64,000 bases of DNA from an uncultured virus (IMG/VR IMGVR_UViG_3300020048_000095) (taxonomy: Duplodnaviria > Heunggongvirae > Uroviricota > Caudoviricetes). Shown here in pieces: positions 1 to 55,835 of this stretch. A model generated the notes under the pieces. The model did not search any database. It worked only from the letters and a program-made list of their open reading frames with translations, and had not been told where the DNA came from. Position numbers and translations under genes: made by a program. Where the stretch lies: IMG/VR virus record IMGVR_UViG_3300020048_000095. One strand, given 5' to 3'. How positions within the stretch are numbered: the first letter of the stretch is position 1; every line of letters begins with the position of its first letter.

Positions 1-2356
1 TATAACCTTCAGATTTATCATCTATATCCTGAGTTGCTAATCCTTCAACACAACAAGTTGTTTCTGCATCTGCTTTTGCCAGCCATATCTTAGGACGATT
101 CCCTTGTCTTCCATCAAAATAAACTGGAGAACCATTGGCGATTGTTGAGCCAGAATTATTGTAAACCTTAATAAATAGTTCTTGACCAATTTGTTGTGTT
201 ACATTATATGGCATACCAAGGTCAAGTGTTCCATCGGTATCATTCCAAGCCAATTGACCTTCTGTAACATTTATATCTGCTTCGGTATTGAATTGAAGAC
301 TATCTGCTGTTAATTGGGCGGCGGATAAATCATGAATTCCTAAATCTACGTCATCGGTAGCTCCGGTATAGGGAACAAATTCATCAGTGCTTGGAGTTAT
401 ACCACTATAACCTGAAATTCCTGAGTAACCACTATAACCAGATATACCAGAAGCACCATTAATACCTGAGTAACCAGAGTGACCTGACAAACCATCTATG
501 CCAGAATAGCCAGATATACCACTAATTCCTGAATAACCCGAAATACCACTGTAACCCGATATTCCGTCTATACCATTATAACCAGATATACCAGAATAAC
601 CACTTGTTCCACTATAGCCAGAAATACCATCTATGCCAGAATATCCAGATGTACCAACTGCTCCTGAATATCCTGATGTACCACTATAACCACTTATCCC
701 GTCTACACCACTATAACCAGATGTACCAGAGTAACCGCTATATCCAGAAACACCGTCCATACCTGAATGACCACTTATTCCACTATATCCAGAAGATCCA
801 AATGCTCCTGAATAACCTGATAAACCACTATAACCTGATATACCAATTATACCCGAGTAGCCGCTCGTACCACTATATCCCGATATGCCGCTATAACCTG
901 AAGTTCCTAAGTAACCACTATAGCCAGAAATTCCTGAGTAGCCAGAAATTCCACTATATCCCGATATTCCTGAATAGCCACTGACTCCAGAGTAGCCACT
1001 ATAACCAGATGTACCAGAGTAACCAGAAATACCGGAGTGTCCTGAAATACCACTATATCCGCTATGTCCAGAATATCCAGAAACACCTGAATGCCCAGAA
1101 ATTCCGTCTATACCTGAATAACCACTATAACCTGACATTCCATCAATTCCAGAATATCCTGAAATTCCACTATGCCCACTTGCTCCATATGCTCCAGAAT
1201 AACCTGATATGCCGCTATATCCTGAAGCCCCATCTATTCCTGAATAACCACTGTATCCACTAATTCCACTATAACCAGATGTTCCTGAGTAACCACTTGC
1301 ACCAGAATAACCACTATAACCAGAGGTTCCACTTATCCCATTTACCCCCGAATACCCACTTATACCGTTAATGCCAGAGTATCCACTAATTCCCGAAAGT
1401 CCATCAACTCCAGAATATCCACTAATGCCGCTATACCCAGAAATCCCACTATGTCCCGATATTCCATTTGTCCCAGAATAGCCACTTATTCCAGATATTC
1501 CATTTGTCCCAGAATAGCCACTTATTCCATCAACGCCTGAGTATCCTGAAAGACCATCTATTCCTGAATACCCAGAGATGCCACTATAGCCGCTTATTCC
1601 CGAATAACCTGATATACCAATTATTCCATCTATACCAGAGTAACCACTAATTCCATTGATTCCTGAGTAACCACTAATGCCAGAATAACCTGAATAACCG
1701 CTGTAGCCAGAGATGCCTGATGCACCATTTATACCACTATGTCCACTTGTACCTGAATAACCTGATATTCCACTATATCCTGAATAGCCAATTATGCCAG
1801 AATATCCTGACATACCACTATAACCTGAGTAACCAGATGTTCCTGAGACTCCATTTATGCCCGAATAACCACTTATGCCCGAATAACCTGATATACCAAT
1901 TATTCCGTCTCTACCAGAATATCCTGAATAACCGCTATAACCTGAACGGCCTGAATAGCCACTATAACCGCTTATTCCGCCACCACCACCGCCACCCAAA
2001 TTTGCGTCTATTATATCAAGGTTAGCATTATACTTCCTAAATGCATCTTGAGGGTAATCAGAACGATTCAAAATCTCTACTTTTGTCAAATTATAATTAG
2101 CCGTATTTGATTCTTGCTCAGATATCTCTTCCTCAAAAACAACCTGCCCACTATAATCAGAAATTGTTATCCACCCGAACTTTAACGCCTTCTGGATATT
2201 TATCAATGTATAATATTTATCATCTACAACTATACTTTCACTAACACTAATCGACGCACGAAAAGGCTCACGCTCAATCGGATTATCTTCATGCAATCTT
2301 TCAAGCGCACTTAAATCTATCCTGCCCGGAATTGTGGATGTTGCCGTTATTCTCAT
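1..2356 (-). CDS. Gly-X-Ser (collagen-like) repeat fibre protein, runs off the window end (>=785 aa)
   Basis: Not in the ORF track because it is truncated. ATG at 2356 (MRITATSTIPGRIDL...); the start and window-end portions I translated share one frame. About 400-1985 encodes GYS/GIS/GHS/GTS/GID triplets, followed by FVPYTGATDDVDLG and GQLAWNDTDGTLDLG...QQIGQE...NNSGSTIANGSPVY, typical of phage fibre domains. Confidence 0.8.
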   Translation of the reverse strand, partial: MRITATSTIPGRIDLSALERLHEDNPIEREPFRASISVSESIVVDDKYYTLINIQKALKFGWITISDYSGQVVFEEEISEQESNTANYNLTKVEILNRSDYPQDAFRKYNANLDIIDANLGGGGGGGISGYSGYSGRSGYSGYSGYSGRDGIIGISGYSGISGYSGINGVSGTSGYSGYSGMSGYSGIIGYSGYSGISGYSGTSGHSGINGASGISGYSGYSGYSGISGYSGINGISGYSGIDGIIGISGYSGISGYSGISGYSGIDGLSGYSGVDGISGYSGTNGISGISGYSGTNGISGHSGISGYSGISGYSGVDGLSGISGYSGINGISGYSGVNGISGTSGYSGYSGASGYSGTSGYSGISGYSGYSGIDGASGYSGISGYSGAYGASGHSGISGYSGIDGMSGYSGYSGIDGISGHSGVSGYSGHSGYSGISGHSGISGYSGTSGYSGYSGVSGYSGISGYSGISGYSGISGYSGYLGTSGYSGISGYSGTSGYSGIIGISGYSGLSGYSGAFGSSGYSGISGHSGMDGVSGYSGYSGTSGYSGVDGISGYSGTSGYSGAVGTSGYSGIDGISGYSGTSGYSGISGYNGIDGISGYSGISGYSGISGISGYSGIDGLSGHSGYSGINGASGISGYSGYSGISGYSGITPSTDEFVPYTGATDDVDLGIHDLSAAQLTADSLQFNTEADINVTEGQLAWNDTDGTLDLGMPYNVTQQIGQELFIKVYNNSGSTIANGSPVYFDGRQGNRPKIWLAKADAETTCCVEGLATQDIDDKSEGY
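400..1985 (-). repeat. 9-bp-period coding repeat (Gly-X-Ser triplets, roughly 175 units)
   Basis: Recurring accactata/accagaata/tccagatat units on the + strand; Gly at every third codon on the - strand. Confidence 0.9.
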
Positions 2357-3627: not shown

Positions 3628-4371
3628 ATGAGATACTTCGGAGGAAAAACCAGAATTTGCAAAGACGTAGCAAAAATAATCGAATCCGTCCGCGAACCAA
3701 ATCAAACATTCCTATCTGTATTCACTGGCGGCGGATGGGTAGAAAGCCTAATCCAAAATAAAAAAATATGTTGCGATAAACACAAATACCTAATCGCAAT
3801 GTACCAAGCGCTTCAAAATGGATGGGAACCGCCAAGTCAATTATCAAACGAAGAGTATCAACATATAAAGAGATATAAAGACGAAAATCCCGCTCTAACT
3901 GGTTTTGTAGGTTTCGGATGTAGTTTCGCAGGTAAATGGTTCGGCGGATATGCAAAAGACAGCACTAACAGAAATTATTGTCTAAATGCTAAAAATTCAA
4001 TTCTAAAGAAAATGAATGGATTTAAAAATACAACATTCCAATGTATTGATTACAGAGACCTAAGCCCAATTAATTCCATTATTTATTGCGACCCTCCATA
4101 TAAAGGGACTACTCAATATGACACAGATGAAGTTGGAAAATTTAATCACGATGAATTCTGGACTATAATCCGAAAATGGGGCGAATATAATACCGTAATA
4201 ATTTCTGAATATGATGCTCCCAATGATATAGAATGCATATGGAAAAGAAACGTTAGATTAGATATAAGAGATAAAAACAACCAAAAGAAAAATAGAATAG
4301 AAAAATTATTCGGATTAAATGTCGATAAATCTAAAATTGCCAATAACAATTTGATTTCTATATTTGCTTGA
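3628..4371 (+). CDS. DNA adenine (N6) methyltransferase, Dam-like
   Basis: MRYFGGK start, F-T-G-G-G SAM-binding motif, catalytic YCDPPY. Confidence 0.9.
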   Translation: MRYFGGKTRICKDVAKIIESVREPNQTFLSVFTGGGWVESLIQNKKICCDKHKYLIAMYQALQNGWEPPSQLSNEEYQHIKRYKDENPALTGFVGFGCSFAGKWFGGYAKDSTNRNYCLNAKNSILKKMNGFKNTTFQCIDYRDLSPINSIIYCDPPYKGTTQYDTDEVGKFNHDEFWTIIRKWGEYNTVIISEYDAPNDIECIWKRNVRLDIRDKNNQKKNRIEKLFGLNVDKSKIANNNLISIFA

Positions 4372-4870
4372 TAGCCCGAATCGCCTTAAACTCTGATGGA
4401 GCTTTATCTTCTGTTAAATCGTCAAATTCACCAGACAATACTTTTTTTAACAAATCGGCATCATTCATTATATATCTATATTTTTCGTGCCATGGTTCAT
4501 GAACAGCTAAAATCTCTTCCGGACGAATATCACGATAAAATCCCACATGATGATTGCCTTTCATCCATTCTTCAGTACTTTGACCTTTATTAGGACGCTC
4601 TAAAGACATTGGCTCATCCACCGAAACATGAAACTCAACAATATTCTTTATGGACGGATCTGGCGGTTGAGACGAAGCCCAAATCATATTAGGCTCTCCA
4701 TAAGTTTCCCCTTTAGCGTGTGACATCATCAATCCTTCATGACGCACATCTTCTGGATTGCCTCTAGTGTAATGATATAAACGAATATGATTAGATGGAA
4801 TTGGTATAACCCCTATCCCATCAGGCACTCTTTCAACTGGTGTAACTTGAGATATTCTATAAATTTTCAC
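4358..4870 (-). CDS. MKIYR-leader protein, ADP-ribosyltransferase-like fold
   Basis: MKIYRISQ leader; RLYHYT...GL...IWAS...IVEF pattern resembling ART strands. Confidence 0.5.
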   Translation of the reverse strand: MKIYRISQVTPVERVPDGIGVIPIPSNHIRLYHYTRGNPEDVRHEGLMMSHAKGETYGEPNMIWASSQPPDPSIKNIVEFHVSVDEPMSLERPNKGQSTEEWMKGNHHVGFYRDIRPEEILAVHEPWHEKYRYIMNDADLLKKVLSGEFDDLTEDKAPSEFKAIRAIKQI

Positions 4871-4871
4871 A

Positions 4872-5099
4872 TTATTCCTTGTTCATCGCCAAATCATAAA
4901 CTTTCCGCCAACCTTCAGACAACGCATATTCCGCTTCTTCCTTGTCAACGCTTTGAAGCCACATTATCATGCTCTCCCTAGCAATATCAATCTCTTCGGA
5001 ACGAACCACACGATTTAACCAATCTACCATCGATTTCAACATAAAATCATCTACAATATATCTACTCTGACTCGTTTTATACATCTTATACCAATTCAT
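4872..5099 (-). CDS. NWYK-leader small protein
   Basis: Probable start ATG 5099 (MNWYKMYKTSQ) after GGGGATGA; 75 aa. Confidence 0.6.
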   Translation of the reverse strand: MNWYKMYKTSQSRYIVDDFMLKSMVDWLNRVVRSEEIDIARESMIMWLQSVDKEEAEYALSEGWRKVYDLAMNKE

Positions 5100-5110
5100 T
5101 TCATCCCCCA

Positions 5111-5566
5111 TTAATTTAAAGCTACTGATATTTGATCTGGAAATATTGTACCAATATATCTTACCGCCCCAACCGCATTCCAAGAAATTTCCCATTCCGT
5201 CAAAGGTATTCTTCTAACTCCATCCACATGCCATTCAGGATGTTCAATCTCCGCTTTATCCCAAGCCTCATCTCTGTCTGACTCATTTGCCATAACGGGA
5301 GATGTCATTGATGCCGGGTCATATCTTAAATTATTCAAATCTGTTACAATGACATTTAATACAATCGGACTGCCAAAATCATATTGAACTCGATTATCAT
5401 AAGAAATTTTTTGATAAGAAAGTTTTTCCGAATAATACCTTGCAAGCTCATATGTCTTTGCCAAAAAAGGGTTAACCAATCCTTTTTCTTTAATAATATC
5501 ATAATAGCGCGAACATGTTCCATGATATGCCGTAATAACTTGTTGAGATATTCTATATATTTTCAT
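5111..5566 (-). CDS. MKIYR-leader protein, ADP-ribosyltransferase-like fold
   Basis: MKIYRISQQ, then AYHGT...IKEKGL..PFLA....ARYY, an HGT-type ART signature. Confidence 0.55.
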   Translation of the reverse strand: MKIYRISQQVITAYHGTCSRYYDIIKEKGLVNPFLAKTYELARYYSEKLSYQKISYDNRVQYDFGSPIVLNVIVTDLNNLRYDPASMTSPVMANESDRDEAWDKAEIEHPEWHVDGVRRIPLTEWEISWNAVGAVRYIGTIFPDQISVALN

Positions 5567-5570
5567 TATA

Positions 5571-6137
5571 TTAATTCATCCTCGGATCAAACGCTTTAAC
5601 ATTCCCGTACTCATCCCACCCAATGTTGCCGGGGTTTAATACATCTGCAAAACAATAATTCATAACGTCACTATAATAATCTTCAAACTTCTGGAAAAAC
5701 GCCATATCGTCTGCATATTCTTCAGTAACTTTATCAACAGTCCCATCGAATTCATCTGTAAACAACATGAAAAGATTCTGCTCTTCTTCACTTAACTTTT
5801 TCAGACGCTCTTTAACAATAACATATAATCCAAGACCTTCTTCAATTTCATACGCCTCATAAACTCTTGCAAATGGCGCATGAACTTGCCAATTATCACC
5901 AATCAAACTTTTTGCCAATTCAAATTCCTGCACATCAGTTGTTATTTTTACAACTTTGTTATCAAATGTAGAATACGCAACGCCAAACATGCCACTTCCA
6001 AGATTTGATTTTAAACCATATTTTTCGTCCAACTCTTGAATGTGATAGTCCTGCAAACTATAATCCACTTTTCTTTCCCCTTCTTCTACAGGAATGTCGT
6101 CAAATGGCAATGGAGAAGCTAGTCTATATATTTTCAT
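5571..6137 (-). CDS. MKIYR-leader protein-kinase-like protein
   Basis: Gly loop LGSGMFGVAY, VVKIT lysine, DVLNPGNIG catalytic loop, AFDP. Confidence 0.75.
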   Translation of the reverse strand: MKIYRLASPLPFDDIPVEEGERKVDYSLQDYHIQELDEKYGLKSNLGSGMFGVAYSTFDNKVVKITTDVQEFELAKSLIGDNWQVHAPFARVYEAYEIEEGLGLYVIVKERLKKLSEEEQNLFMLFTDEFDGTVDKVTEEYADDMAFFQKFEDYYSDVMNYCFADVLNPGNIGWDEYGNVKAFDPRMN

Positions 6138-6199
6138 ACTATATTATTCAATGGAAATATAAAAATACCTATAATTATTTTTCAAAACGAATTATTGTT

Positions 6200-6775
6200 T
6201 TAATATCTAATATCACCAATACTAGCATCAAATCGTTTAGATAGAGGAATTGGTTGTCCTTGGTCGTCTCTGGTCACTGGATCGGCGGATTTTATCTGGG
6301 ATGAGCTGAAGACTACATGTTCAGAATCCCCAACCTGGATAGCATCGTGTCCCATTCCTTGAACGTATTCACTGATGGTCTTATTCGCTTTTTTCCGGTC
6401 TTCCTCAAGCTGCAACGTGTATTTAATTGGGTTTTGGATATTCAGGAAATTCCCGGTCATCTTTTTTCCATGCTGCTGTGCAAACATAGGCCGGGTTGCA
6501 AAGTAAAAACCTTCCCCATAATGTGGTGTGTAATTTTGTCCTATCCGATTTTTATCGAACACGGTGAAATCTGAATCAGTAGCATGATACACCGGACCAA
6601 CATTATACCCCGCCTCCTTCGCAGCCGCATCCACCATTCTTTGTGCCGTCTCCATATCTCCACTTTCAATTGATTTTAAATACTCATCAGAATCTCCACT
6701 TCCAATGAGTTTAAAATCCTCATCCACTGGAATATCATCAAGGGGCAATGGCAAAGCTAGTCTATATATTTTCAT
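6200..6775 (-). CDS. MKIYR-leader ADP-ribosyltransferase of the polyvalent-protein type
   Basis: GDMETAQRMVDAAAKEAGY, VYHAT...F..FD, YGEGFYF, EHVVF...QIKSADPVT...IPLSKRF; the body looks GC-richer than its flanks. Confidence 0.7.
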   Translation of the reverse strand: MKIYRLALPLPLDDIPVDEDFKLIGSGDSDEYLKSIESGDMETAQRMVDAAAKEAGYNVGPVYHATDSDFTVFDKNRIGQNYTPHYGEGFYFATRPMFAQQHGKKMTGNFLNIQNPIKYTLQLEEDRKKANKTISEYVQGMGHDAIQVGDSEHVVFSSSQIKSADPVTRDDQGQPIPLSKRFDASIGDIRY

Positions 6776-7386
6776 GCTAACATATTTCGCAATTTGTCAG
6801 CCTGATCCCTTGTGAATAACAACATTCTCCCGCCGGGACTCTTTATGCAATCAATTTTTCCAGTTTTATAATAATATTGCGCTCTCCATTTTTCTTTGTC
6901 ACTAGTTACTATCTCTGACAAACGAATTAATTTAAGCCATTCTGGAACAGCAAATTTATGATCATAACAAGCAATAGGCGACTTCCACCCAATGAAATTA
7001 AAGAAATCTTTTATCGATTCTGCATGAATATAAATATCATTTTTGCTATTATTTGCATCACATTCAATGTTATGCAATTTTAATTTAGGAATAATAATCT
7101 CGTTCAAATCTTTCTTGTCAAATGCACATGTAGCCAATCTTAATAAAGACATGTTCCCGTTTGGTTCATAATGAAAACTGCCATCACCAAGATACCATAA
7201 CATACACGAAATTGGGGTTATTCGAACATCTGATGGTATCTTTTTAGTTTGATTTAATCCACTATACCATCTAACCGCTTGAGAATTAATATCTGGATGC
7301 ATTAATGTTTGCGCCATCCATATAGGATTAGGACATCTTTCCGTAATTTTCCCATACTGTGCTGGCTCTCTTGGAGAATAATTTAC
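6772..7386 (-). pseudogene. 3' part of a LAGLIDADG homing-endonuclease gene interrupted by IS200/IS605
   Basis: The frame is open upstream of the tracked ATG (VNYSPREP...W-MAQTLMHP...RWY...KKIP...TPISCMLWYLGDGS...LRLATCAF); the 5' part is at 9320-9466. Confidence 0.75.
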
Positions 7387-7548
7387 GAAAAGTGAGCGGG
7401 AAGGCTCACGACTTCAGTCGTGGGATGAAAGCGAACGAATACCCATCAACTCTATAAAACATATTATACCTAAACCTATAAAAATAAAAAGAAAAATATT
7501 TTAAAATAAATAAAGGAATTATACACTTATTTTTTGTATAATACCAAT

Positions 7549-7947
7549 ATGCATAAAATATGGACACATTCTAATAAAGCAGTTTTCAATATCGGATACC
7601 ATCTAATCTGGTGTACCAAATATAGAAAACCAATGTTGAAACTAGATATAGAAAAAAGACTTAAATTTCTTTTGCTTGAAAAAGCAAAAGAAATGGATGT
7701 CGGCATAGAACAAATGGAAATCATGCCAGACCACGTTCACCTTTTCGTAAAGTGCTCTCCGGTAGATTCCCCTCACTTTATTGTTCAACAATTCAAAGGT
7801 TATACTTCTCGTTTAATGAGAAAAGAGTTTTCAGAACTTAGAACCAGAGTCCCAACTTTGTGGACTAGAAGTTATTATTGTGAATCAATTGGACATATTA
7901 GCGAACAAACAGTTAAACAATATATAGAAGACCAAAAGAATAAATAA
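7549..7947 (+). CDS. tnpA: Y1 (HUH) transposase
   Basis: YHLIWCTKYR, MPDHVHLF (HUH), LWTRSYY, catalytic Tyr in VKQYIEDQ. Confidence 0.95.
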   Translation: MHKIWTHSNKAVFNIGYHLIWCTKYRKPMLKLDIEKRLKFLLLEKAKEMDVGIEQMEIMPDHVHLFVKCSPVDSPHFIVQQFKGYTSRLMRKEFSELRTRVPTLWTRSYYCESIGHISEQTVKQYIEDQKNK

Positions 7948-9284
7948 TGGAAATTATTCATACATATAAGCAACCTTTTAAACCCGATTCTTTGACATTT
8001 GAAATGGCAAAAGAATCGGGTAGAATCTATTCTAAAGCATTAGAGTTGCAAAAAGACCCAAAGTTTAAAGACTTTAAAGATTTAACTAAAGAAATGGAAA
8101 AATATTGCAAAGAAAACACTAAGTATCTTCATAGTCAAAGCGCTCAAGGTTCTTATCAAGATTTCATAACTAACATGAAATCCTACTTTAAAGCTTTACA
8201 ATCTTTCAAAAAGAACCCAAAAGGGTTTTCAGGGAAACCCAAACCACCAAGAAGAATCAAGTTCTTATATAAAATAACTTTTAAAAAAAGTGCAATTAGA
8301 TACAAAGAAGGTTATCTATTGTTGTCAGTGAAAAAACCTCTATTCCCAATTAAAATTAAATGGAACGAAAACCTTCCATTGCCCACTTGGGCAATCATCA
8401 GTTACGATAGATATGAAGGATGGAATGTAAATTTTGTAATGGAAAAACAAACCGAAGATAAACACGAAAAAGTTTTAACCACAAATAATATTTTGTCTGT
8501 TGATTTAGGAGTTAAAAGAGTTGCTACAACGTTCAATAATGTGAATGAAGAAGTTATCACTTATTCTGGTAAAGAGTTAATGTCTTTGACAAGACTTAGA
8601 AACAAAGTAGTTGGAAAAATAAAATCAAAGAAAAGTAAATATAAAAAGAAAAGTAGAAGACATAAGGGAATTTCCAGAGCGCAAAGAAAAATAGTTAAAA
8701 GAATTAAAAACAAACAGAAAGACATTATTCATAAATATAGTAGAAAAATTGTTGATTATTCAGTTTCACTAAATATTGGTAAAGTTATCTTTGGAGATAA
8801 TTCTTCCACCCACGATGAAACAAATTGTGGTAAAAACAATCAAAGTATTCAACAAAATCCTGAACAAAAAGTTAAAAATTATACAAAATACAAATTTGAA
8901 AGTGTAGGGGGAACAGTCGAGACTGTCCCCGAACAATACACCAGCAGAACCTGTCCGCAATGTGGATGCGTAAAGTCTAATTCTCCCAAAGGGAGAATAT
9001 TCATATGTGAGAGTTGCAAATTCACATATGATAGAGATGGAGTGGGTTGTGTTAATATTATGACAAAGAACGAGAAGAATGTATCGTTTAGACAAGCGAA
9101 CGGGGAACCGAGAGCTTGGCTGGACGTAGTTGGTGGTCTGACTCCGCCGAAGGGAGTGAAATATAAAAGTTTTGCTTCTGGATTGTCTCCTAGAGATAGG
9201 ATAATCAATTTTGAGCAATTGAAATTGGTTGGAGGGAATTTGGTTGAAGCGAAGCAATTCGCTGATGCCAAGATTCGTTCCTGA
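7947..9284 (+). CDS. tnpB: RNA-guided endonuclease TnpB
   Basis: RuvC-I VDLGVK, CPQC/CESC zinc finger, RuvC-III DRDGVGCVNI; translationally coupled to tnpA (TAATG). Confidence 0.93.
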   Translation: MEIIHTYKQPFKPDSLTFEMAKESGRIYSKALELQKDPKFKDFKDLTKEMEKYCKENTKYLHSQSAQGSYQDFITNMKSYFKALQSFKKNPKGFSGKPKPPRRIKFLYKITFKKSAIRYKEGYLLLSVKKPLFPIKIKWNENLPLPTWAIISYDRYEGWNVNFVMEKQTEDKHEKVLTTNNILSVDLGVKRVATTFNNVNEEVITYSGKELMSLTRLRNKVVGKIKSKKSKYKKKSRRHKGISRAQRKIVKRIKNKQKDIIHKYSRKIVDYSVSLNIGKVIFGDNSSTHDETNCGKNNQSIQQNPEQKVKNYTKYKFESVGGTVETVPEQYTSRTCPQCGCVKSNSPKGRIFICESCKFTYDRDGVGCVNIMTKNEKNVSFRQANGEPRAWLDVVGGLTPPKGVKYKSFASGLSPRDRIINFEQLKLVGGNLVEAKQFADAKIRS

Positions 9285-9586: not shown

Positions 9587-10453
9587 TTACGAACCAGCCG
9601 TTACCGTAACTTTCGCACAGGCATAGCTGTTGATTACTACGATACCGATTTCCTCGTATATGACCCATCCTAGCCGTAACTTCTTCGGGTCGTCCGCTGG
9701 CAGCACGGTGATGTCCTGACGAATCGGGAACGCACCAACGTATTCAGCAGGAGCAAGTAAGAACACTGTATCGGTAGGGCACTTAGAAGACACATGGATG
9801 TCCGCTGTGAACAAGTGACCAAACAAACCAGTCGTCAATACTTCTTTCTGAGTCGCTTCATCGTAAACAGTCTTACCGAAGTTACGAATGTCAGCATAAC
9901 GAAGAGCATGGCAAACAATCTTACCAACAGTCAAATCGTGCTGTTCGATTGTAGCAAACGCCTGATTCAACGCATGAAGAGTCAGCGTACCACCAGTAGA
10001 AACTACTGTATGAGCTGCATCAACAGACGCAAGAATCGCGTTGAAAATATTCAAATCCTCTTCCTTCTGGATCGCTTCTTTAGCCTTGATCTGCGCACGG
10101 TCTACGATGTAGAAACGGCGAGCTTTCACTTCTGAAAGTCTGATCGTTGGGTTAGTTGCAATTTCGAAAGTAGGAACAAGAATCTCTTCACCTTCTGTGA
10201 TCATATCTGGAACGGCACCTCTACGTGAAATCACGTGGGCTGTCGCTCTGACATCCTTCTCGTAACGTGCATAAGCGCCCTGAGGAAGCTCATCCACCAT
10301 CAGCAATTTACGTCCTACCGCCTGATACTCTAAAGCTCTGCGAATAGGCTCAACCATTGCTTGCGCCAATGCAACACGACCCTGTGGGGTATCAAGTGCT
10401 TGGGCAATCAAACTCTCTCTCTCAGCATTTACCGCTCTCTTGTCAATAGCCAT
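9587..10453 (-). CDS. major capsid protein (HK97-like fold inferred)
   Basis: Last gene of the portal-protease/scaffold-decoration-capsid order, strong AAGGAG RBS, own terminator. LAQAMVEPIRRALEY...RKLLMVDELPQGA...VPTFEIATNP resembles large-phage capsid proteins. Confidence 0.8.
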   Translation of the reverse strand: MAIDKRAVNAERESLIAQALDTPQGRVALAQAMVEPIRRALEYQAVGRKLLMVDELPQGAYARYEKDVRATAHVISRRGAVPDMITEGEEILVPTFEIATNPTIRLSEVKARRFYIVDRAQIKAKEAIQKEEDLNIFNAILASVDAAHTVVSTGGTLTLHALNQAFATIEQHDLTVGKIVCHALRYADIRNFGKTVYDEATQKEVLTTGLFGHLFTADIHVSSKCPTDTVFLLAPAEYVGAFPIRQDITVLPADDPKKLRLGWVIYEEIGIVVINSYACAKVTVTAGS

Positions 10454-11314: not shown

Positions 11315-14300
11315 TTATTTTTCGCCATAAATCGTCAAGTCTTTATCGAATTTACTATTGCCGATTGTGAAAGAACTTGCCAATCTTGTTTGCAAATCAT
11401 CTCCACCAACGACTGGAACTGACTGTTGAACTATTGCAGGAATTGAATAGCCCTCTGAATTCTCCGTTTTAACAGATGCTTTTCGAACTGTTTTTTCAGG
11501 GAACATGCTACTTGCTACAACTGAAATATTATCAGCTTCGAAAGACATTAACGCTGTTACTACATTATCAAACGTAACTTTGTCGCTATCGATTCTATTG
11601 TTGGCAACTAACCAAGCCGCAGCCTGAACAGCTTCGTTTTTACGAGCTTGAGAAATCTTGTCAAGCTGGTTCTGACGCTTCTGCTGAACAGTCTTTAACA
11701 TCTCGCTATTAATTCCTGGCATATCTTTCTGCATTTCTTTTTCATGACCCATATATGAACTGTCTACGGGTACATCAAGAGCCTTTGTTGCAGGATTGAT
11801 ATTGTCAGCCCCTTCATTCCCCATTTCGGCATTTCCTCTTGGCACACTTGGTTTAGCCATAGGAACGTCAATATTATCAGCACCTTCATTTCCTAAAGTT
11901 GCCTTAGAACGTGGAACTTCTACGTTTCCATCTACGCTATCAACTTCCTTCAATTGCTTTGCCTCTTTGCGTAGAACCGCTAATATTGTTTCTTTTGACA
12001 CACCAGACGCTTTTGCAATCTTGCCAGCAATATCATCTGCTATGTTTGCAATAACAGTTCCTTTTATCTGGTTGTTGATTGCAGGCATCCCGCTTTGCAT
12101 TTCCTGTTCGTGACCCATGTAAGAATTTCCTACAGGGATATCCAGAGCCTTTGCTGCTGGATTGATATTATCGGCACCTTCATGACCCATTTCGGCATTT
12201 CCTCTTGGAACGCTTGGTTTAGCCATAGGAACATCAATATTATCAGCACCTTCGTTACGAATAGTTGCCTTAGAGCGTGGAACTCCAGCTTCAACATTAC
12301 CCTCTATGCTTTCAACCTTTTTCGGTGTACTTGCCATTTTGAAAACCTCCTCGTTTGTATGTCTAACTCTTCGCCCGTTCATGGCTAAAGCTATCTGTTT
12401 TTCTTGCGCTTCGTCAATAGAAGCTTCTTTTTCTAAACACTCTTCATCATCTTTGTCGCAATCTTTTTTCTTTTTCTTTCCGCCATCATCGTCTCCATCG
12501 TCTCCATCGTCTTCGTCAACTTCTACCTCAATGCACTCTTCCTTGGCTTCAACAACAATGAGATCGTTTTTAACTTCGGCTACAACAACTTCATTTTCGA
12601 TTTCAACTTCAACATCCATAAACTTAGCAGGAGGAACTAGCGTTGCTGAACCAATGTCAGCCTCTTCTGCCGCTGCCTTTTTCATCTGCTTCATTTTTAC
12701 TTTAGCCAACTTTTCAGCCTTCAAAGCGTCATCCAAACTAATTAAATCGGTAACTGTCAAATCTTTCTCCAGTCCCTTATCAATATCTTCTTTGAACGCC
12801 TGAACATATACATTGTCGGCAAGTTCAGATGCAAAACGTTTCTTGATACAATTGCAAAGAGCTTCGGCTTCTTTGAGATCATGACCTTCTTTCTTTGTCT
12901 GATCTTCTATGCATTCATCCCAAGGATCTTTTTCCAATGAAATTGCAGCGATACGATTCATTTGACGAATTTTTCTAAAGCCAAGTTTCTTTAACTGTCC
13001 GCATACGCATTCGGCCATAACTTTACCTTTGCATTCCCCGAAAGTCGCAACTGTATCGCCGCCGTATGTTCTAGCTAATCTTTCCATACATGCGCTCATT
13101 GGGAATTCATCAGCTTTTGCAGCGGCTGTTTTAAGCATCTTCGCGATTTTAACATCTGATGCAAATTTAGCCACAGATTCTTTGCATCCTTCGCAATTTT
13201 CGACATCAGGGAAAATATCCCATTTAACTCTTAAAACACCAACTTCAGGATTGCTTGCGCTAACCATGAAATCTTTCTCTACAGGCGTTCCGCAATTATC
13301 GCAAACGAATTCTGCATGTCCGTTTTCCTCTACAGAAGCCTTACGATGTGAAGCTCCGCAAGCAGGGCAAACGTGTCCATGTGCTTTCTTGTTGTTAGCG
13401 ATACGAACAATTGCATCCTTACCTAGATTGGTTTGAGCTGCAACTGGTAACGCTGGAACTTCAGGAGCCTCAGGAGTTTCAGGTGATTCAACGCCCTCTT
13501 CGCCAACGCTCTTAGTAGGCTTAATGATTTTGAATTCAACCGTTTTCTTGATTAAAGCTTCATATTCGGCAGTACAATTGTTGCACTTGCCTTTTATATT
13601 CCCAGCTTCATTAGTGACATCAACGTCTGTACTTCCGCATTCTGGGCATACCGTCCAAGGCATTTGTCTTTCGCCATCTGTAGGAATTTCGTTCATTCCT
13701 TCATCCGTTGACTCTTCGGCGGTGTCAGTTGTCAACGCCTGAATTGGATCTCCGCCCATAGGTGCTCCGCCAGGTAATCCTTGTTCTGGTGCAGCGGCTC
13801 CCGCAGGGGCTCCACCAACTCCGCCACCCATTGGAGATTGAGCTGACCGTTTCATCTTGCTACCTTTTTTTGAGGAAGCCCATGATTGCTGTCCGCCACC
13901 CAATGTTTGCTCAAGTCCTTCGCCAGACATATCGCCTTCTGGAACGTCACCTTCTGGCATAGTAGGTTCGCCGCCGATAGGAATCTCAGTTGTTCCGCTT
14001 CCAGTATCGATATTAACTTCATTTTCTTCAGTACCAGTCTGAACAGCGATTTGGATTGTGTCGCCGCTTATAGTTACGTTTGTGATAGAAGCAAGACGAA
14101 GATTCTGAGAAGCTAGCGCACCTTTGGTAAATGCAACTATTTCTTTCTTGAATCCAACGTCCGTTTGCTTTGCGCCTAATTCATCAAAGGAAGTTTCAAT
14201 TACGGTATCGGCAGATCCAAGTGATTTAGGATTTAAAATTTCTTCTTTTTCATCCTTAATTGAAGCCATCAACTTTTTTCTTTCTACATCTCTGCTTTTC

Positions 14301-17300
14301 TTGGCAGCTTCAACGGTATTTTTTTTTGATTGCAATGCCGCTCTCAATTCGTCCTTACGGCTAGCTTTTGCAACAACCGTCTCTCTAGAACTAGCTAACT
14401 GGACTTCAATTTCAGAAGAAACGCTATCAATCCCGTCTTGACCTTCAGAAACAACATCGACTGCATCAATCAACACATCTGGATTGTAAGTTTCATCAGA
14501 TGCGAAAGAGCGTAAACCGTCAACTATAACTTCAGCTATCTCTTTAGTTCCAGCAGAAGCGACCTTAAGATTCTTATTCTGCCAGAAAGCAACTCTCTTG
14601 GCATAATTAATATCTTCTTTAGCCTTTGCGCCCTCGACAAGAGAAACGCCTAAGTTATAGCGATTTTCCAATGAATCAACCAAAGATGCAGCAACCGTGC
14701 AAGCCTCATCTGGTGTGCAACCTGTTTTAATAGCTGAAGAAGCTAAAACGCTCAATACTGATTTCATATGGTCAGATGCACTCTTAAACTGAGAAGCATC
14801 GCGTTTCGCAGCTCTAGCCCAAGGAGCAGAAGTGGAATTCAACTGATTCTCAATAGTTGTATTGGGTTCGTTATTTACGCGGAATTCGTCTAACTGTTTT
14901 TGAGTAGTAGAGTGAATGTCTGAATTTTCACGTAAACTATCTAATTGATTTTCCTGAACGCGATCAACTTCCGCATTGGTTCTAGGATGATGTTTGATTC
15001 CATCGTTCAATTGGTTTTCGGTAAGAACTTCTGGATCGTTGCCGGTACGCTTGCTCTCTAATTGCTTTTGAATTGTTGAATGCGTATCGGTGTTCGTTCT
15101 AGGATGATAAATATCAGAACGATCCAATTGTGCTTCCTGAACTCTGTCTGGAGTCCCTTGTACTGTTGCAGCTCCCGCTTTCTTACTAATATCACTCATC
15201 TTTTTTACTCCTTCTTTTTGTTTATGTAAATTGTTCGCAAAGTTTTCCAATAGTTTAATCGCAGCATCTTGTGGCGACTCCATTATTTCATTCCGTTCAT
15301 CATCCGTCAAATCCTCATAAGTCCAAACCTTAGTTGCGTCAGAGCTTTTATCTTCAGCAACAATAATAAAAGAATCATCTCTTTTATTAACTGATAAACG
15401 ATGTTCATTGTTTTGTATTGATGGTACTTGTTTTATATACTCGAAAAAGGATTGTTTTTCCTTCCACGAATTTGATAAAATTTTAATTGCCTGTTCTTTT
15501 TGTTGTTGTTTCTCTGCGACCGTACGTCTTGAGCCCATTTCTATGTCTCCTATTTTGTTTAACTTTTCACAAATATCAAAAGCATTTCTTATAATTTTTT
15601 GTCCATTTGCAATTCTTTTGTTTACTATGTATTTACTATCATCAACATTCTTCTCAACTATAACATCTGAAATACGCTGAATAGAACGACTATCTGAAAC
15701 ATTAGAGGTTCTAGGCTTTACTGGCGCGGTTATCGGTAATCTAGGTGCAGATGTTGACGGTTTAATAGGTGAACCAGATACGCTACCAACATTAGTTCCA
15801 GTTTCTGAAGCGACTGGAGTAGGTGCTGGCATTCCTTGAGGCATCCCTTGAGGCGCACCTTGAGGCATAGGTGGTTCTGCTGCTGGAACCTCTCCACCCT
15901 CTTCCATATTGCCAACAGTACCTGGAACTTGACTATTGCCTTCAATATTTCCATAACCAGCGCCAATAAGTTCTTCAAGCCACGTTTGTAAATCTGACAT
16001 AATCTGAACTAAGTCGCTTGAAAATTCCATTTCAACTTGTTTTCTGTTTTGAATAAGACTAACGGCGATTTGCTCTAAAGTAGTCAAACATTGTTCAATT
16101 TGGTCTACTTCTTCTTGACTTGCTTTTTTCTCAATAGCTGCCGTTCTAACCATACGGAATTCATTTTCCATTCTTGCAACTTTAGCCATATAATTTTCAT
16201 TAGGGATAATACCTTGGATATGGCAACTAGGACAAGCTGGATCTACAACGGCACTAAGTTCGATAAATTTAAGACCATGATTGTATTCAAATACGGTTTC
16301 ATCTCTAAAGTCTTTTTCTTCTCCAGTAACGACATTACGTGCTCTTCCTGTAAATTTTCTACCCTTTCTATTACGTATATGGGCGCAGTAATCCTCAGTT
16401 CGCTCCGCACGGTTGCCGCATATATTACAGCAACTATATTCAACTGAGCAATTATGGACATATATATCGTCAGCAATATAACACTCATCGTTTTCAACCG
16501 TCAAATCATATGTCAATTCATCACTTTTAGTTATTATGATTTTTTTAACAACCAAAGTTTCATATTCAATATTTTCTTTAGACGAACGCGAAACGATAAC
16601 GTCTCCTATTTCTATATCTTGCGACTCAATAAAACCGATTTCTCCAACTTTAACGTTAAATTCACTAACATTTTGTTTTTTAACGCACATAATTGGATGA
16701 TTAAAAGAAAACACAGGGCAATCATGCGGAGTATCAAATTCAAATTGATATAAATTAGTGTCTAATGGTTTTGCATACTTCTCTATAACTTTCTGCTTGT
16801 TACCATAAGGCGTCAACACATAATCGCCCTTAACAACATTTTTAATAGTTTTTTTAGAACCGTCTGCCATAGTAATGAGAGCGTCACCCAACATTGATCC
16901 CATGGAGACCCCTGTTACATACTCTTCCTCAATTGAACGGCAAATATGTGGATAAGCATCTCTATCTATAAAGCAGATTGTATAAACAGCTTCTTCTTCT
17001 GGAATCCACTCTGCGAAAATAACTTTACCTCTTGCGTTCTCAACATTTTGATTGTCATGATTTGTAAAAAATGGAACGCCTTCGAAACTTTTATAAGATG
17101 ATTTTAGTTCTTCAGTTGAAAAATAATCGCCATTTGAATTCGGACAATTTGCTTCAATAGCTTTAGCACGAAAGAATAAAGCATTAGGATGTTTTTTAAT
17201 TTCGGCTTCAACAATTCTTGCTTTATCACTACCTGGTTCAATCATAACGCGACCAGAAGCAGTGCGCATCATTCTATTCCCATCTTCTTTTTCTTTTATA

Positions 17301-17347
17301 AGTGGATTAATATCCGTAAATTTAAAAGATGCTTTTTTAGCTATCAT
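11315..17347 (-). CDS. prohead maturation protease fused to a very large scaffold/inner-head region; contains an intein
   Basis: N-terminal PNSNGDYF, FTNH, ARGKV, GVSMG|intein|C, FIELSAV..PA (herpes/HK97-like protease motifs), then coiled-coil, acidic, CxxC and repeat regions; lies upstream of the capsid genes. Confidence 0.8.
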   Translation of the reverse strand: MIAKKASFKFTDINPLIKEKEDGNRMMRTASGRVMIEPGSDKARIVEAEIKKHPNALFFRAKAIEANCPNSNGDYFSTEELKSSYKSFEGVPFFTNHDNQNVENARGKVIFAEWIPEEEAVYTICFIDRDAYPHICRSIEEEYVTGVSMGSMLGDALITMADGSKKTIKNVVKGDYVLTPYGNKQKVIEKYAKPLDTNLYQFEFDTPHDCPVFSFNHPIMCVKKQNVSEFNVKVGEIGFIESQDIEIGDVIVSRSSKENIEYETLVVKKIIITKSDELTYDLTVENDECYIADDIYVHNCSVEYSCCNICGNRAERTEDYCAHIRNRKGRKFTGRARNVVTGEEKDFRDETVFEYNHGLKFIELSAVVDPACPSCHIQGIIPNENYMAKVARMENEFRMVRTAAIEKKASQEEVDQIEQCLTTLEQIAVSLIQNRKQVEMEFSSDLVQIMSDLQTWLEELIGAGYGNIEGNSQVPGTVGNMEEGGEVPAAEPPMPQGAPQGMPQGMPAPTPVASETGTNVGSVSGSPIKPSTSAPRLPITAPVKPRTSNVSDSRSIQRISDVIVEKNVDDSKYIVNKRIANGQKIIRNAFDICEKLNKIGDIEMGSRRTVAEKQQQKEQAIKILSNSWKEKQSFFEYIKQVPSIQNNEHRLSVNKRDDSFIIVAEDKSSDATKVWTYEDLTDDERNEIMESPQDAAIKLLENFANNLHKQKEGVKKMSDISKKAGAATVQGTPDRVQEAQLDRSDIYHPRTNTDTHSTIQKQLESKRTGNDPEVLTENQLNDGIKHHPRTNAEVDRVQENQLDSLRENSDIHSTTQKQLDEFRVNNEPNTTIENQLNSTSAPWARAAKRDASQFKSASDHMKSVLSVLASSAIKTGCTPDEACTVAASLVDSLENRYNLGVSLVEGAKAKEDINYAKRVAFWQNKNLKVASAGTKEIAEVIVDGLRSFASDETYNPDVLIDAVDVVSEGQDGIDSVSSEIEVQLASSRETVVAKASRKDELRAALQSKKNTVEAAKKSRDVERKKLMASIKDEKEEILNPKSLGSADTVIETSFDELGAKQTDVGFKKEIVAFTKGALASQNLRLASITNVTISGDTIQIAVQTGTEENEVNIDTGSGTTEIPIGGEPTMPEGDVPEGDMSGEGLEQTLGGGQQSWASSKKGSKMKRSAQSPMGGGVGGAPAGAAAPEQGLPGGAPMGGDPIQALTTDTAEESTDEGMNEIPTDGERQMPWTVCPECGSTDVDVTNEAGNIKGKCNNCTAEYEALIKKTVEFKIIKPTKSVGEEGVESPETPEAPEVPALPVAAQTNLGKDAIVRIANNKKAHGHVCPACGASHRKASVEENGHAEFVCDNCGTPVEKDFMVSASNPEVGVLRVKWDIFPDVENCEGCKESVAKFASDVKIAKMLKTAAAKADEFPMSACMERLARTYGGDTVATFGECKGKVMAECVCGQLKKLGFRKIRQMNRIAAISLEKDPWDECIEDQTKKEGHDLKEAEALCNCIKKRFASELADNVYVQAFKEDIDKGLEKDLTVTDLISLDDALKAEKLAKVKMKQMKKAAAEEADIGSATLVPPAKFMDVEVEIENEVVVAEVKNDLIVVEAKEECIEVEVDEDDGDDGDDDGGKKKKKDCDKDDEECLEKEASIDEAQEKQIALAMNGRRVRHTNEEVFKMASTPKKVESIEGNVEAGVPRSKATIRNEGADNIDVPMAKPSVPRGNAEMGHEGADNINPAAKALDIPVGNSYMGHEQEMQSGMPAINNQIKGTVIANIADDIAGKIAKASGVSKETILAVLRKEAKQLKEVDSVDGNVEVPRSKATLGNEGADNIDVPMAKPSVPRGNAEMGNEGADNINPATKALDVPVDSSYMGHEKEMQKDMPGINSEMLKTVQQKRQNQLDKISQARKNEAVQAAAWLVANNRIDSDKVTFDNVVTALMSFEADNISVVASSMFPEKTVRKASVKTENSEGYSIPAIVQQSVPVVGGDDLQTRLASSFTIGNSKFDKDLTIYGEK
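11708..12283 (-). repeat. two 210-bp (70-aa) copies in the scaffold C-terminus
   Basis: VPRSKAT..NEGADNIDVPMAKPSVPRGNAEMG.EGADNINPA.KALD.PV..SYMGHE.EMQ..MP.IN at 12074-12283 and 11708-11917. Confidence 0.9.
16451..16897 (-). mobile_element. mini-intein (149 aa) in the prohead protease
   Basis: Begins SMLGDALITMADG after VSMG and ends TYDLTVENDECYIADDIYVHN|C; no endonuclease motifs. Confidence 0.9.
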
Positions 17348-23078: not shown

Positions 23079-23159
23079 AATTTCTCCTGCTTTATACAAC
23101 ACAACAAAACATAACTATTATACAAAATAGTTGTGTTTTATATTGTGAAATTAACGACA

Positions 23160-30637: not shown

Positions 30638-31438
30638 TTAACTATTATAACTCTTTTCACAACTTTTACTGCAACATCTCTGTCCTTTTTCTTTGGGCTT
30701 AAATTCAGAACCGCACCATTTACATTCTTCTTTATAATCCTTCCATGCATCGGGACATCCTCTTTCATGAGTTCTAACGCCATTAACCATTACGACTTCA
30801 CAAGAATCGCATTTTTTACCAGCGGAAGTAACGATTTTGGATTTTTTGCCTGAAGCCACTGTTTGTCTATATTCCTGTTCCGCTATTGAAAACCCTATTG
30901 CATTTTTAAGTTCTTTGGGCAATATTGAAAAATCACCAAAATGTTCAACTAAACGCTGTTCATATTGTTGCGGGGTCACATCATAGACTCGTCCACCGGG
31001 GGCTACAATATTATCCATAGCCTTATCAAAACCACTTTGCCCCTCGTATTTCAATATTTCCATATATTTTGAACTATCATTGCCAGCGGAAGTAACGATT
31101 TTTGATTCTTTGCTGGCGGTTGAAATTGGCTGGTCGAATTCCCCCAATTTTCGTTCATCTTCTGATATTGGTCTAAACTCACCATTTTCATACATATTGT
31201 AAACCTTAAGATTATATCGTTTAGCCACGTCAAAAGCGTCTTTAAGACTACGATTGCTGGCAGTTAGAGGAGAACCTTGATGTATTAGCGCAAACCCATC
31301 ATCTGTTTTAGTTATATATGTTTTTGGTCCCAATACGTCAGCAATTTTCATCCATCCAGATCTCTTTCCAATATTTTGCCACTCTTTCTTGGAAATCTTT
31401 ATTGTTTGTTTTCCACTCGCTGTTTTTACTAATTTCAT
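30638..31438 (-). CDS. SKKEW-leader modular protein with a C-terminal Cys-rich zinc-binding module
   Basis: Leader ISKKEWQNIGKRSGWMKIA; two SKIVTSAG linkers; CDSC...HERGC...CKWC...CCSKSC. Confidence 0.75.
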   Translation of the reverse strand: MKLVKTASGKQTIKISKKEWQNIGKRSGWMKIADVLGPKTYITKTDDGFALIHQGSPLTASNRSLKDAFDVAKRYNLKVYNMYENGEFRPISEDERKLGEFDQPISTASKESKIVTSAGNDSSKYMEILKYEGQSGFDKAMDNIVAPGGRVYDVTPQQYEQRLVEHFGDFSILPKELKNAIGFSIAEQEYRQTVASGKKSKIVTSAGKKCDSCEVVMVNGVRTHERGCPDAWKDYKEECKWCGSEFKPKEKGQRCCSKSCEKSYNS

Positions 31439-55271: not shown

Positions 55272-55835
55272 CTAATTATATCCCATTCTTGCGTCGAACG
55301 AAACAATTTCTCCGTTAGAATTTAACCCAACATTGTCGTGACGGTAAAGATCTTCATAATGGAATGGTGCCATTTTATCATAATAAGTTTCAACTATTTC
55401 AAACGCGACCGGGAATTGCGCTTTCAGATCTTTCTGCTCTTCATGAGATTGATTATCTTCGTATTTATTAAAAACCATCCTTAACGTATCATTTAGCGGA
55501 TAAACTTTTTCCTTCAAAATATAATAATATCTGTAACCGTTTTCGTTATATAATTCGCCCAAATCATAAATTTTTGCAAAAGCTCCAGCTTGTGCGTCTT
55601 TTATCTGTAATGCCGCTTTATATTCATCGTCATCTAAAGTAAGTTTCAATACCTTATCGTCTTCTGTTAAAAAAGCCATCCCCCACATGCCTTCGCCTAC
55701 ACTGTCTTTTAATTTAAAACGTTTTTCAATCATATCGGCTTCTTTTTCGGAAAGTAAAAAGTCAATACTTCTCCCGCCATATTCAATCGGTTTTTTGTTT
55801 AACGGTAACGCAAACGCTTTTCTATATATCTTCAT
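55272..55835 (-). CDS. MKIYR-leader protein-kinase-like protein
   Basis: Probable start MKIYRKAFALPL at 55835; VGEGMWGMAF, VLKLT, DLYRHDNVG, SFDA; paralogue of 5571-6137. Confidence 0.75.
   Translation of the reverse strand: MKIYRKAFALPLNKKPIEYGGRSIDFLLSEKEADMIEKRFKLKDSVGEGMWGMAFLTEDDKVLKLTLDDDEYKAALQIKDAQAGAFAKIYDLGELYNENGYRYYYILKEKVYPLNDTLRMVFNKYEDNQSHEEQKDLKAQFPVAFEIVETYYDKMAPFHYEDLYRHDNVGLNSNGEIVSFDARMGYN

What the first reader, a model, noticed from the sequence alone, without database searches (positions are those of the whole stretch)
6080..6775. The same leader DNA is grafted on a kinase and on a foreign-looking ADP-ribosyltransferase
Seen: adjacent genes start with an identical 22 nt (ATGAAAATATATAGACTAGCTT) and a ~19-aa leader (MKIYRLASPLPFDDIPVEE vs MKIYRLALPLPLDDIPVDE). 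They then diverge into a kinase and a polyvalent-protein-type ART whose body looks GC-richer than the rest of the region. Genes starting at 4870 and 5566 also share 22 of their first 24 nt. Inference: a snapshot of new cargo being created by fusing a captured domain behind a duplicated leader.
Basis: partly seen in the sequence, partly recalled or inferred. Interest (0 to 1): 0.7.

Follow-up and report, generated by a model that had tools for sequence, protein, structure and literature searches.

The report
Kinase leader reused on phage ADP-ribosyltransferase
In an uncultured giant phage related to phage G, an ADP-ribosyltransferase gene starts with a copy of the neighbouring kinase gene's first 17-19 codons, including a short tag shared by many unrelated genes that likely loads proteins into the virus head, and relatives carry a different catalytic core between the same gene ends.

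Summary
Observation confirmed (both genes are on the minus strand); interpretation partly right. The 19-aa leader has two parts. One is a 7-residue tag (M-K-I-Y-R-x-A/S) found on 11 genes of this 75.6-kb contig, which accounts for most of the 22 identical bases. The other is the kinase family's own N-terminal arm (x-P-L-P-F-D-D-I-P), present in all 7 kinase homologues found (49-95% identical). So the ART gene is a chimera that took the kinase's 5' end. It is not a fresh event: 6 of 9 conserved codons differ silently, the fusion occurs in 4 ART alleles, and a close relative lacks the ART. ART relatives sit in long polyvalent-type frames (79 of 80 loci). High GC3 lies inside the ART (codons ~31/41-160), not at the leader junction, and relatives have a different core (codons 64-159) between near-identical ends. 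The tag ends in K/R-x-A, enriched in the protease-scaffold of 62 of 62 relatives. It is likely a T4-like head-loading and cleavage signal; neither is shown. The scan found this tag/KxA system before on other DNA. Added here: the chimera, the core swap, and an analogous tag in culturable phage G.

The parts
6200..6775 (-). Chimeric stand-alone ART-PolyVal ADP-ribosyltransferase, 191 aa
   Evidence: PF18760, residues 62-165; AlphaFold pLDDT 86, residues 1-23 below 50; weak tankyrase/PARP fold matches, best E about 1e-3
6755..6775 (-). Genome-wide 7-codon N-terminal tag ending in R-x-A (predicted head-loading and cleavage signal)
   Evidence: 11 genes of the contig carry it; 4 exact pattern matches in the window, 0 in 100 shuffles
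6725..6754 (-). Kinase-derived arm, codons 8-17 of the ART gene (codons 18-19 fit either parent)
6653..6724 (-). Junction: 36-nt tandem duplication of the start of the ART's first helix (27 of the first 33 nt alike)
   Evidence: (family D20); kept in all 4 alleles
6299..6585 (-). Exchangeable catalytic core, codons 64-159; 31/96 identical to the 216-aa alleles, whose flanks are 84-95% identical
   Evidence: contigs in runs X3 and X4 join 6299 to 6585 with 360 other letters in place of 285
6784..6811 (-). Promoter-like motif 8 nt before the ART start, inside the end of the LAGLIDADG gene; the same motif precedes the protease gene
   Evidence: 10 of 65 upstream regions, 27 matches in the whole contig; motif drawn up by eye, function inferred
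5571..6137 (-). C-terminally truncated kinase-fold protein, 188 aa; inferred donor of the leader
   Evidence: Gly-loop, K64, E71, D165, N171 and D184 invariant in 9 sequences; residues 1-18 pLDDT below 50; kinase folds
6138..6199 (-). Spacer before the kinase; kept up to 6187 in relative L165, which has no ART
5111..5566 (-). Tagged 151-aa gene; YHGT motif suggests an ART-like fold (by eye, untested)
   Evidence: no Pfam or PHROG hit
4872..5099 (-). Small gene with the M-N-W-Y-K form of the tag; its orthologue in L171 has the M-K-I-Y-R form
4358..4870 (-). Tagged 170-aa gene, possibly ART/PARP-like
   Evidence: atlas row 9: DarT-like cluster, PARP in 38% of members, score 0.93; a lead only
6772..7317 (-). 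LAGLIDADG endonuclease gene overlapping the ART start by 4 nt
9587..10453 (-). Major capsid protein, 56% identical to phage G gp27
11315..17347 (-). Intein-containing head protease fused to a long scaffold-like region rich in K/R-x-A
   Evidence: phrog_18299 E 2e-6; K/R-x-A 39 observed vs 21.9 expected
55272..55835 (-). Kinase paralogue (32% identical) with tag plus L-P-L arm; a third paralogue lies at 69801-70511 of the contig, outside the window

Best explanation
The ART gene is a chimera whose first 17-19 codons match the 5' end of the adjacent kinase gene, and it likely arose by an old recombination that gave a polyvalent-type ART domain this phage group's N-terminal tag, which would load the protein into the prohead and be cut off at K/R-x-A by the head protease. 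Shown: shared leader; the arm is native to the kinase family; a 36-nt duplication at the junction; a relative without the ART; silent divergence of the leader; a different catalytic core in relatives; K/R-x-A enrichment in protease-scaffold proteins. Inferred: direction kinase to ART; tag DNA as the recombination seed; selection keeping the peptide; head packaging; cleavage after Ala7; delivery into the host and ADP-ribosylation of a host target, as for T4 Alt; core exchange by recombination in the conserved ART flanks. The chimeric origin I put at about 0.9 and the head-loading role at about 0.6.
For: Direction: all 7 kinase homologues (49-95% identical) begin with tag + x-x/P-L-P-F/L, and so do 9 of 9 close alleles. 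All 8 distinct metagenome matches to the extended-leader pattern are kinases (10 listed, one contig returned twice). Kinases in L163 have the same arm behind the other tag form. L165 (capsid 99%, kinase 87% identical) has no ART before the kinase, while L171 has both. Age: 6 silent vs 3 replacement differences; 4 ART alleles. Donor class: 79 of 80 loci in long frames. Portability: P0003 has the bare tag fused directly to the same ART; 6 of the 16 homologues I read are stand-alone with a leader ending L/I-x-E, the T4 gp21 motif (motif from PMC9026906 passages), one of them (L063) beside T4-type head genes (read by eye). Tag role: K/R-x-A exceeds expectation in 62 of 62 related protease-scaffolds (pooled 2.17-fold; reversed motif 1.09, T4 motif 1.18); 27 of 65 genes have K/R-x-A/S in their first 12 residues against 15% of internal 12-mers; both leaders lie outside the predicted folds. 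Phage G has an analogous tag on 10 ORF starts, with 0 matches for the control pattern.
Against: No virion, cleavage or activity data exist for this phage. The K/R-x-A patterns were chosen after seeing the sequence, and the 62 scaffolds are relatives, not independent samples. Why residues 8-17 stay conserved in the ART is unexplained if only 7 residues are the tag; ongoing conversion with the kinase could mimic selection. The strand-5 acidic residue varies (E here, D in the 216-aa alleles, A in P0030), so some alleles may be inactive. The promoter-like motif is not enriched before tagged genes (4 of 22 vs 6 of 43). No close donor was found: the best long-protein match to the core is 36% identical. 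The one tagged phage G protein reported in particles (gp346) comes from a data set that also lists thymidine kinase and SSB. Low pLDDT of the ART leader may only reflect that 4 of 21 aligned sequences cover it.
Confidence: 0.6

Rival explanations
1. One reading: a free-standing leader module was recently grafted on both a kinase and a newly captured ART.
For: 22 identical nt; ART GC3 high and codon use 3rd most atypical of 65 genes; empty site in L165; ART absent from 0-of-44 search of related contigs (no positive control in that set).
Against: The arm is conserved across kinases down to 49% identity; 6 of 9 conserved codons differ silently; the GC3 break is not at the junction; 4 alleles exist.
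Confidence: 0.08
2. The ART already had its own bare tag (as P0003 does), and gene conversion with the neighbouring kinase, seeded by the shared tag DNA, patched in ten more codons and still homogenises the two 5' ends. The extension is then a by-product, and the tag may still act as in the best explanation.
For: P0003 has tag + ART without the arm. The ART has its own upstream sequence and promoter-like motif, unlike the kinase's. Residue 6 agrees between ART and kinase in 3 of 3 pairs (L/L here; L/L for P0030/P0037; I/I for P0031/P0023), although only 2 of 9 kinase alleles have L; the two outside pairings are inferred from equal contig lengths.
Against: Only 3 pairs; codons 8-19 are diverged; the window's ART leader is no closer to its own kinase (43/51) than to other phages' kinases (44-45/51).
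Confidence: 0.3
3. The tag is an expression device (an A/T-rich translation start on nearly leaderless mRNA), not a packaging signal; the ART borrowed an efficient start.
For: The tag codons are A/T-rich, and the promoter-like motif ends 8 nt before the ART start.
Against: The G/C-rich Ala/Ser codon 7 is kept; an alternative tag with different DNA (M-N-W-Y-K) ends in the same K/R-x-A/S; tag-like peptides also occur inside or at the C-terminus of proteins; scaffold enrichment.
Confidence: 0.12
4. K/R-x-A marks a site for protease turnover or a binding motif for a phage partner outside the head; the tagged proteins act in the infected cell and are not injected.
For: No packaging data; the tagged set includes an endolysin-like protein (48602-49357).
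Against: The motif is concentrated in the protease-scaffold and head-module genes; the same ART carries T4-type leaders in other phages.
Confidence: 0.15

Closest known systems
Phage T4 capsid targeting sequence (CTS) of IPI-III and the Alt propeptide, removed by protease gp21
   Same: Short N-terminal peptide on unrelated small proteins, ending in a three-residue motif that is also frequent in the scaffold; an ADP-ribosyltransferase among the cargo (PMC9026906 passages).
   Different: Motif is K/R-x-A rather than L/I-x-E; phage G-like rather than T4-like head; H-Y-D/E type ART rather than the R-S-E type of Alt; packaging and cleavage not shown.
ART domains of polyvalent proteins (Pfam PF18760 ART-PolyVal; Iyer et al. 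2017, PMC5512222)
   Same: Pfam hit above cut-off; H64 and Y91 present; relatives inside very long frames.
   Different: Stand-alone 191-aa gene behind a kinase-derived leader; the strand-5 acidic position is E here, D or A in alleles.
Truncated kinases of polyvalent proteins (Iyer et al. 2017)
   Same: Kinase core that ends just after the DFG-like aspartate.
   Different: No hit to any Pfam kinase model at E up to 0.05; stand-alone, with a conserved proline-rich arm after the tag.
Lysinibacillus (Bacillus) phage G, NC_023719
   Same: Closest cultured phage by capsid protein (56%); protease gp19 has 10 K/R-x-A vs 3.3 expected; an N-terminal M-K-R-L-I-K-K-A/S-type tag on 10 ORFs.
   Different: Different tag sequence; no tblastn match to this ART or kinase in phage G.
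Cassette exchange in polymorphic toxin and polyvalent loci
   Same: Catalytic part replaced between constant flanks.
   Different: An internal core is swapped for another member of the same ART family; no silent cassettes or immunity gene seen; only two core types observed.

Membership tests
T4-type capsid targeting sequence | Short shared N-terminal peptide on otherwise unrelated proteins | tested here: met
   11 genes in the contig
T4-type capsid targeting sequence | Ends in the gp21 site L/I-x-E | tested here: not met
   Tag ends in K/R-x-A/S; L/I-x-E only 1.18-fold in related scaffolds
T4-type capsid targeting sequence | End motif shared with the protease/scaffold of the same phage | tested here: met
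T4-type capsid targeting sequence | Sufficient for packaging into the head and removed by the head protease | not testable with these tools
   No virion data; the gp346 report for phage G is unspecific
ART-PolyVal (PF18760) | HMM score above the curated cut-off | tested here: met
   50 bits vs 31.2; alleles 50-66 bits
ART-PolyVal (PF18760) | H-Y-D active-site triad (Iyer 2017, section read) | tested here: inconclusive
   H64 and Y91 present; the last-strand acid is E152 here, D in P0002/P0031, A in P0030, and D144 is also conserved; assignment by eye
ART-PolyVal (PF18760) | ADP-ribosyltransferase activity | not testable with these tools
   Needs an assay
Polyvalent protein | Several effector domains in one polypeptide | tested here: not met
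   Single-domain 191-aa gene
Polyvalent-protein kinase family | Loss of the C-terminal subdomain with catalytic residues kept | tested here: met
   Protein ends 4 residues after D184; motifs invariant; model
Polyvalent-protein kinase family | Match to the family profile | tested here: not met
   No Pfam kinase hit at E up to 0.05
Polymorphic toxin cassette system | Silent cassettes and immunity gene beside the main gene | tested here: inconclusive
   None evident among ORFs at 4358-7317; the contig holds only part of the genome

The most novel reading that the evidence does not exclude
Phage G-like megaphages run a two-level effector shuffling system. The DNA of a shared head-loading tag seeds recombination that puts new domains, here a polyvalent-protein ART, into the virion payload, and conserved ART flanks then let whole catalytic cores be exchanged to change host targets. 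The K/R-x-A tag is a non-T4 capsid address that can be tested in cultured phage G through its M-K-R-L-I-K-K-A/S genes.
Probability: 0.3. Interest if true: 0.65.

Novelty: new variant of a known kind. Interest (0 to 1): 0.4.

Why it matters
How phages outside the T4 family choose which proteins to package and inject is largely open. This locus shows the candidate tag being moved onto a new enzyme, and the same ART domain carrying a T4-type leader in other phages, which is comparative support that these leaders are interchangeable addresses. The analogous tag in phage G makes the idea testable in the only cultured relative. The fusion itself is ordinary domain shuffling, and the scan has noted the tag system several times on other DNA, which limits the interest of this one locus. 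I found no description of these tags in print: a search for four tag strings gave 8 papers, none on phages.

Tried and rejected
Recent duplication: rejected. Break in composition at the leader junction: not found. The 4870/5566 pair as a second graft: only the tag is shared. A close polyvalent donor for the core: best 36% identity among 21 candidates, 2 hits. ART in related phage contigs: 0 of 44, kinase 1 of 44; no positive control, so weak. Extended leader or junction in prokaryote genomes and IMG/VR: 0 matches; near records may be left out. Kinase search in IMG/VR: none with the single protein; 5 loci with the alignment, all distant kinase domains in long frames. Cultured phages: ART matches only Pseudomonas phage F116 (31%); kinase none. 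PDB sequence search for the kinase: one weak hit, E 0.05. No RNA holder listed. A loose end suggesting that a relative's ART shares the kinase's upstream DNA was set aside, because the contig may be a kinase paralogue. Promoter-like motif as a marker of tagged genes: no enrichment. A tag-by-tag comparison with phage G particle proteomics was not possible: the detection list is in a figure, no supplement searched held it, and the earlier proteome paper (Gonzalez 2020, recalled) and the supplement of PMC8570332 were not read. The deep profile search and one atlas query did not complete, so distant stand-alone kinases and ARTs are under-sampled, and gene 5566 is unassigned.

Full report
Setting. 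The window is bases 1-64000 of a 75,627-nt virus contig. It holds a head module: terminase, portal, an intein-containing protease fused to a long scaffold-like region, decoration and capsid genes. The capsid protein is 56% identical to phage G gp27, and its IMG/VR relatives lie on contigs of up to 548 kb. The finding lies just downstream of the capsid gene, in a run of five minus-strand genes at 4358-6775.

Observation. The ART (6200-6775) and kinase (5571-6137) genes share their first 22 nt, 47 of 57 nt and 16 of 19 residues, and nothing after that. The similarity beyond the first 21 nt is real: 26/36 against at most 23/36 elsewhere in the contig. The ART is Pfam ART-PolyVal. The kinase keeps the catalytic motifs in 9 aligned sequences and folds like protein and aminoglycoside kinases. 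The ART is GC-richer than most genes (5th of 65; 2 further genes were dropped for a strand entry error), but the capsid and decoration genes are richer still.

The leader has two parts. The first seven codons are a tag found on 11 genes of the contig. Other tagged pairs share prefixes of up to 20 nt, so the 22-nt identity and the 4870/5566 pair mostly reflect this tag. A second form (M-N-W-Y-K) also occurs, and orthologues can switch form (4872-5099 vs L171). Residues 8-19 are the kinase's own N-terminus. All 7 database homologues (49-95% identical) and both paralogues in the contig have a proline-rich arm after the tag. All 8 distinct metagenome matches to a pattern for tag plus arm are kinases, and two kinases in L163 have the arm behind the other tag form. 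The ART is the only non-kinase body I found with the arm. The copy therefore most likely went from kinase to ART. A close relative (L165; capsid 99%, kinase 87% identical) runs from the homing endonuclease genes straight into the kinase with no ART, while L171 has both genes.

Age and junction. Codons 8-19 show 3 identical, 6 silent and 3 replacement differences. The ART leader is as far from its neighbour (43/51 nt) as kinase orthologues from other phages are from each other (41-44/51). The fusion exists in four alleles. It is therefore established within a narrow clade and not a fresh event. It was not seen in 44 related contigs (weak without a positive control), in prokaryote genomes or in IMG/VR. 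At the junction, a 36-nt stretch at the start of the ART's first helix is tandemly duplicated (27/33 nt alike), consistent with a short-homology join. Residue 6 agrees between ART and kinase in 3 of 3 inferred pairs, a hint of continuing conversion that the DNA distances do not confirm.

Origin of the ART body, and the core swap. In the best 80 of 135 IMG/VR stretches, 79 lie in frames of 917 aa or more, most matches start near residue 31, and none reaches residues 1-5. No close donor was found (36% at best). GC3 is 0.29 in codons 1-17, 0.15 in 18-30, 0.44 in 31-62 and 63-160, and 0.19 in 161-191, so the break is inside the ART. Two alleles (216 aa) have ends 84-95% identical to ours but only 31/96 identity over residues 64-159. 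Contigs in two lake-water runs of different studies join positions 6299 and 6585 across 360 other letters. The exchanged piece is almost exactly the Pfam catalytic domain (62-165). The GC-rich stretch ends at the swap boundary but starts 20-30 codons before it, so more than one exchange may have occurred.

What the tag likely does. It ends in K/R-x-A/S. That motif is enriched in the window's protease-scaffold (39 vs 21.9) and in 62 of 62 distinct related protease-scaffolds recovered from 80 loci (2.17-fold pooled), while the reversed motif (1.09) and the T4 motif (1.18) are not. The pattern was chosen after seeing the sequence, and the proteins are kin. Both leaders lie outside the predicted folds. 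In T4, a 10-residue propeptide suffices for packaging and is cut at L/I-x-E, and the ART Alt is packaged and injected (PMC9026906, passages). Among the 16 of 21 ART homologues I read, P0003 has the bare tag fused directly to the ART, and six stand-alone forms have leaders ending in L/I-x-E; one of these sits among T4-type head genes (read by eye). The same domain thus appears to carry the leader type of whichever phage family holds it. Phage G's protease gp19 is also enriched (10 vs 3.3), and a pattern for M-K-R-L-I-K-K-A gave 10 matches at up to 2 mismatches, all at ORF starts, against 0 for the control. One of them, gp346, is reported in phage G particles, but that data set also lists metabolic enzymes (PMC12484599 passages), so this is weak. 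Polyvalent ARTs are predicted, not shown, to be packaged and to modify host proteins (PMC5512222 section 9 and passages; PMC9503650 passages).

Against the reading. Nothing here measures packaging, cleavage or catalysis. One allele lacks the last-strand acidic residue. The conservation of the kinase arm in the ART has no assigned role. The promoter-like motif does not single out tagged genes. The deep profile search did not complete, so sampling of distant stand-alone forms is thin.

Literature and prior notes. I read passages of PMC5512222, PMC9026906, PMC12484599, PMC8570332, PMC7824862 and PMC9503650, section 9 of PMC5512222, and part 1 of 5 of supplement 2 of PMC12484599 plus a term search of its 8 supplements; other papers only as search listings. 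None of the passages describes this tag; a search for four tag strings found no phage paper. Unread supplements and the phage G proteome paper may bear on cleavage sites. Earlier scan notes report the M-N-W-Y-K tag and the K-x-A motif in other genomes; none was found for this ART by sequence or for the chimera by words.

Verdict. Real feature. An old kinase-to-ART 5' graft with later core exchange, within a tag system that works like the T4 capsid targeting sequence but fails its motif test. New variant of a known kind; interest 0.4.

Noticed in passing
NC_023719.1 (L173-L183), e.g. 28218, 254652, 255160, 256453, 258975, 446709: Cultured phage G has an M-K-R-L-I-K-K-A/S-type N-terminal tag on at least 10 ORFs, including ferritin-like gp346 and two with H-G-T motifs that look ART-like by eye; the word was met in no earlier scan finding.
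   Followed up: partly
window 30638-31438, 31460-31792, 55911-56384, 62511-62891; contig 65587-65937: A second, longer shared N-terminal family (K-T-A-S-G-K-x-T-I-K-x-S-K-K-E-W ... G-W) on unrelated bodies, also common in relatives.
   Followed up: no
window 59150-59197; 31801-34242 internal; contig 63091-64872 end: Tag-like peptides at C-termini or inside proteins, as possible polyprotein joints or C-terminal propeptides.
   Followed up: no
upstream of 17347, 6775, 56900, 35752, 19574 and others: Conserved promoter-like motif A-A-G-G ... (C/T)-G-A-A-(A/T) with about 17 nt spacing before 10 of 65 genes, in three cases 8-9 nt from the start codon.
   Followed up: partly
window 382-2000: Long 9-nt-periodic repeat region read on the minus strand as G-x-S-G-Y-S-type triplets, probably a fibre protein.
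   Followed up: no
window 7534-9284; contig 71319-72575: IS200/IS605-like element (TnpA and TnpB by eye) between the capsid gene and the tagged array; absent from L165. A second TnpB-like gene lies outside the window.
   Followed up: no
window 11315-17347, 19629-23102, 38452-41055, 43280-46540: Intein-like insertions in protease (weak Pfam hit), portal, terminase and ribonucleotide reductase (the last three by eye).
   Followed up: no
window 4374-5113 in runs X3 and X4: An abundant relative lacks genes 4870 and 5099 (joint skipping 738 nt), so the tagged array gains and loses whole genes.
   Followed up: no
contig 67265-67774 and 68189-68722: Two more tagged genes that look like ART-PolyVal-type domains by eye; a relative of the second (L166) hits PF18760.
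   Followed up: partly
L081 6437-6727 and 6887-7177: A different phage has two neighbouring small genes sharing a 13-14-residue leader starting M-K-I-Y-R-I-A-L-N-E-L with unrelated bodies.
   Followed up: no
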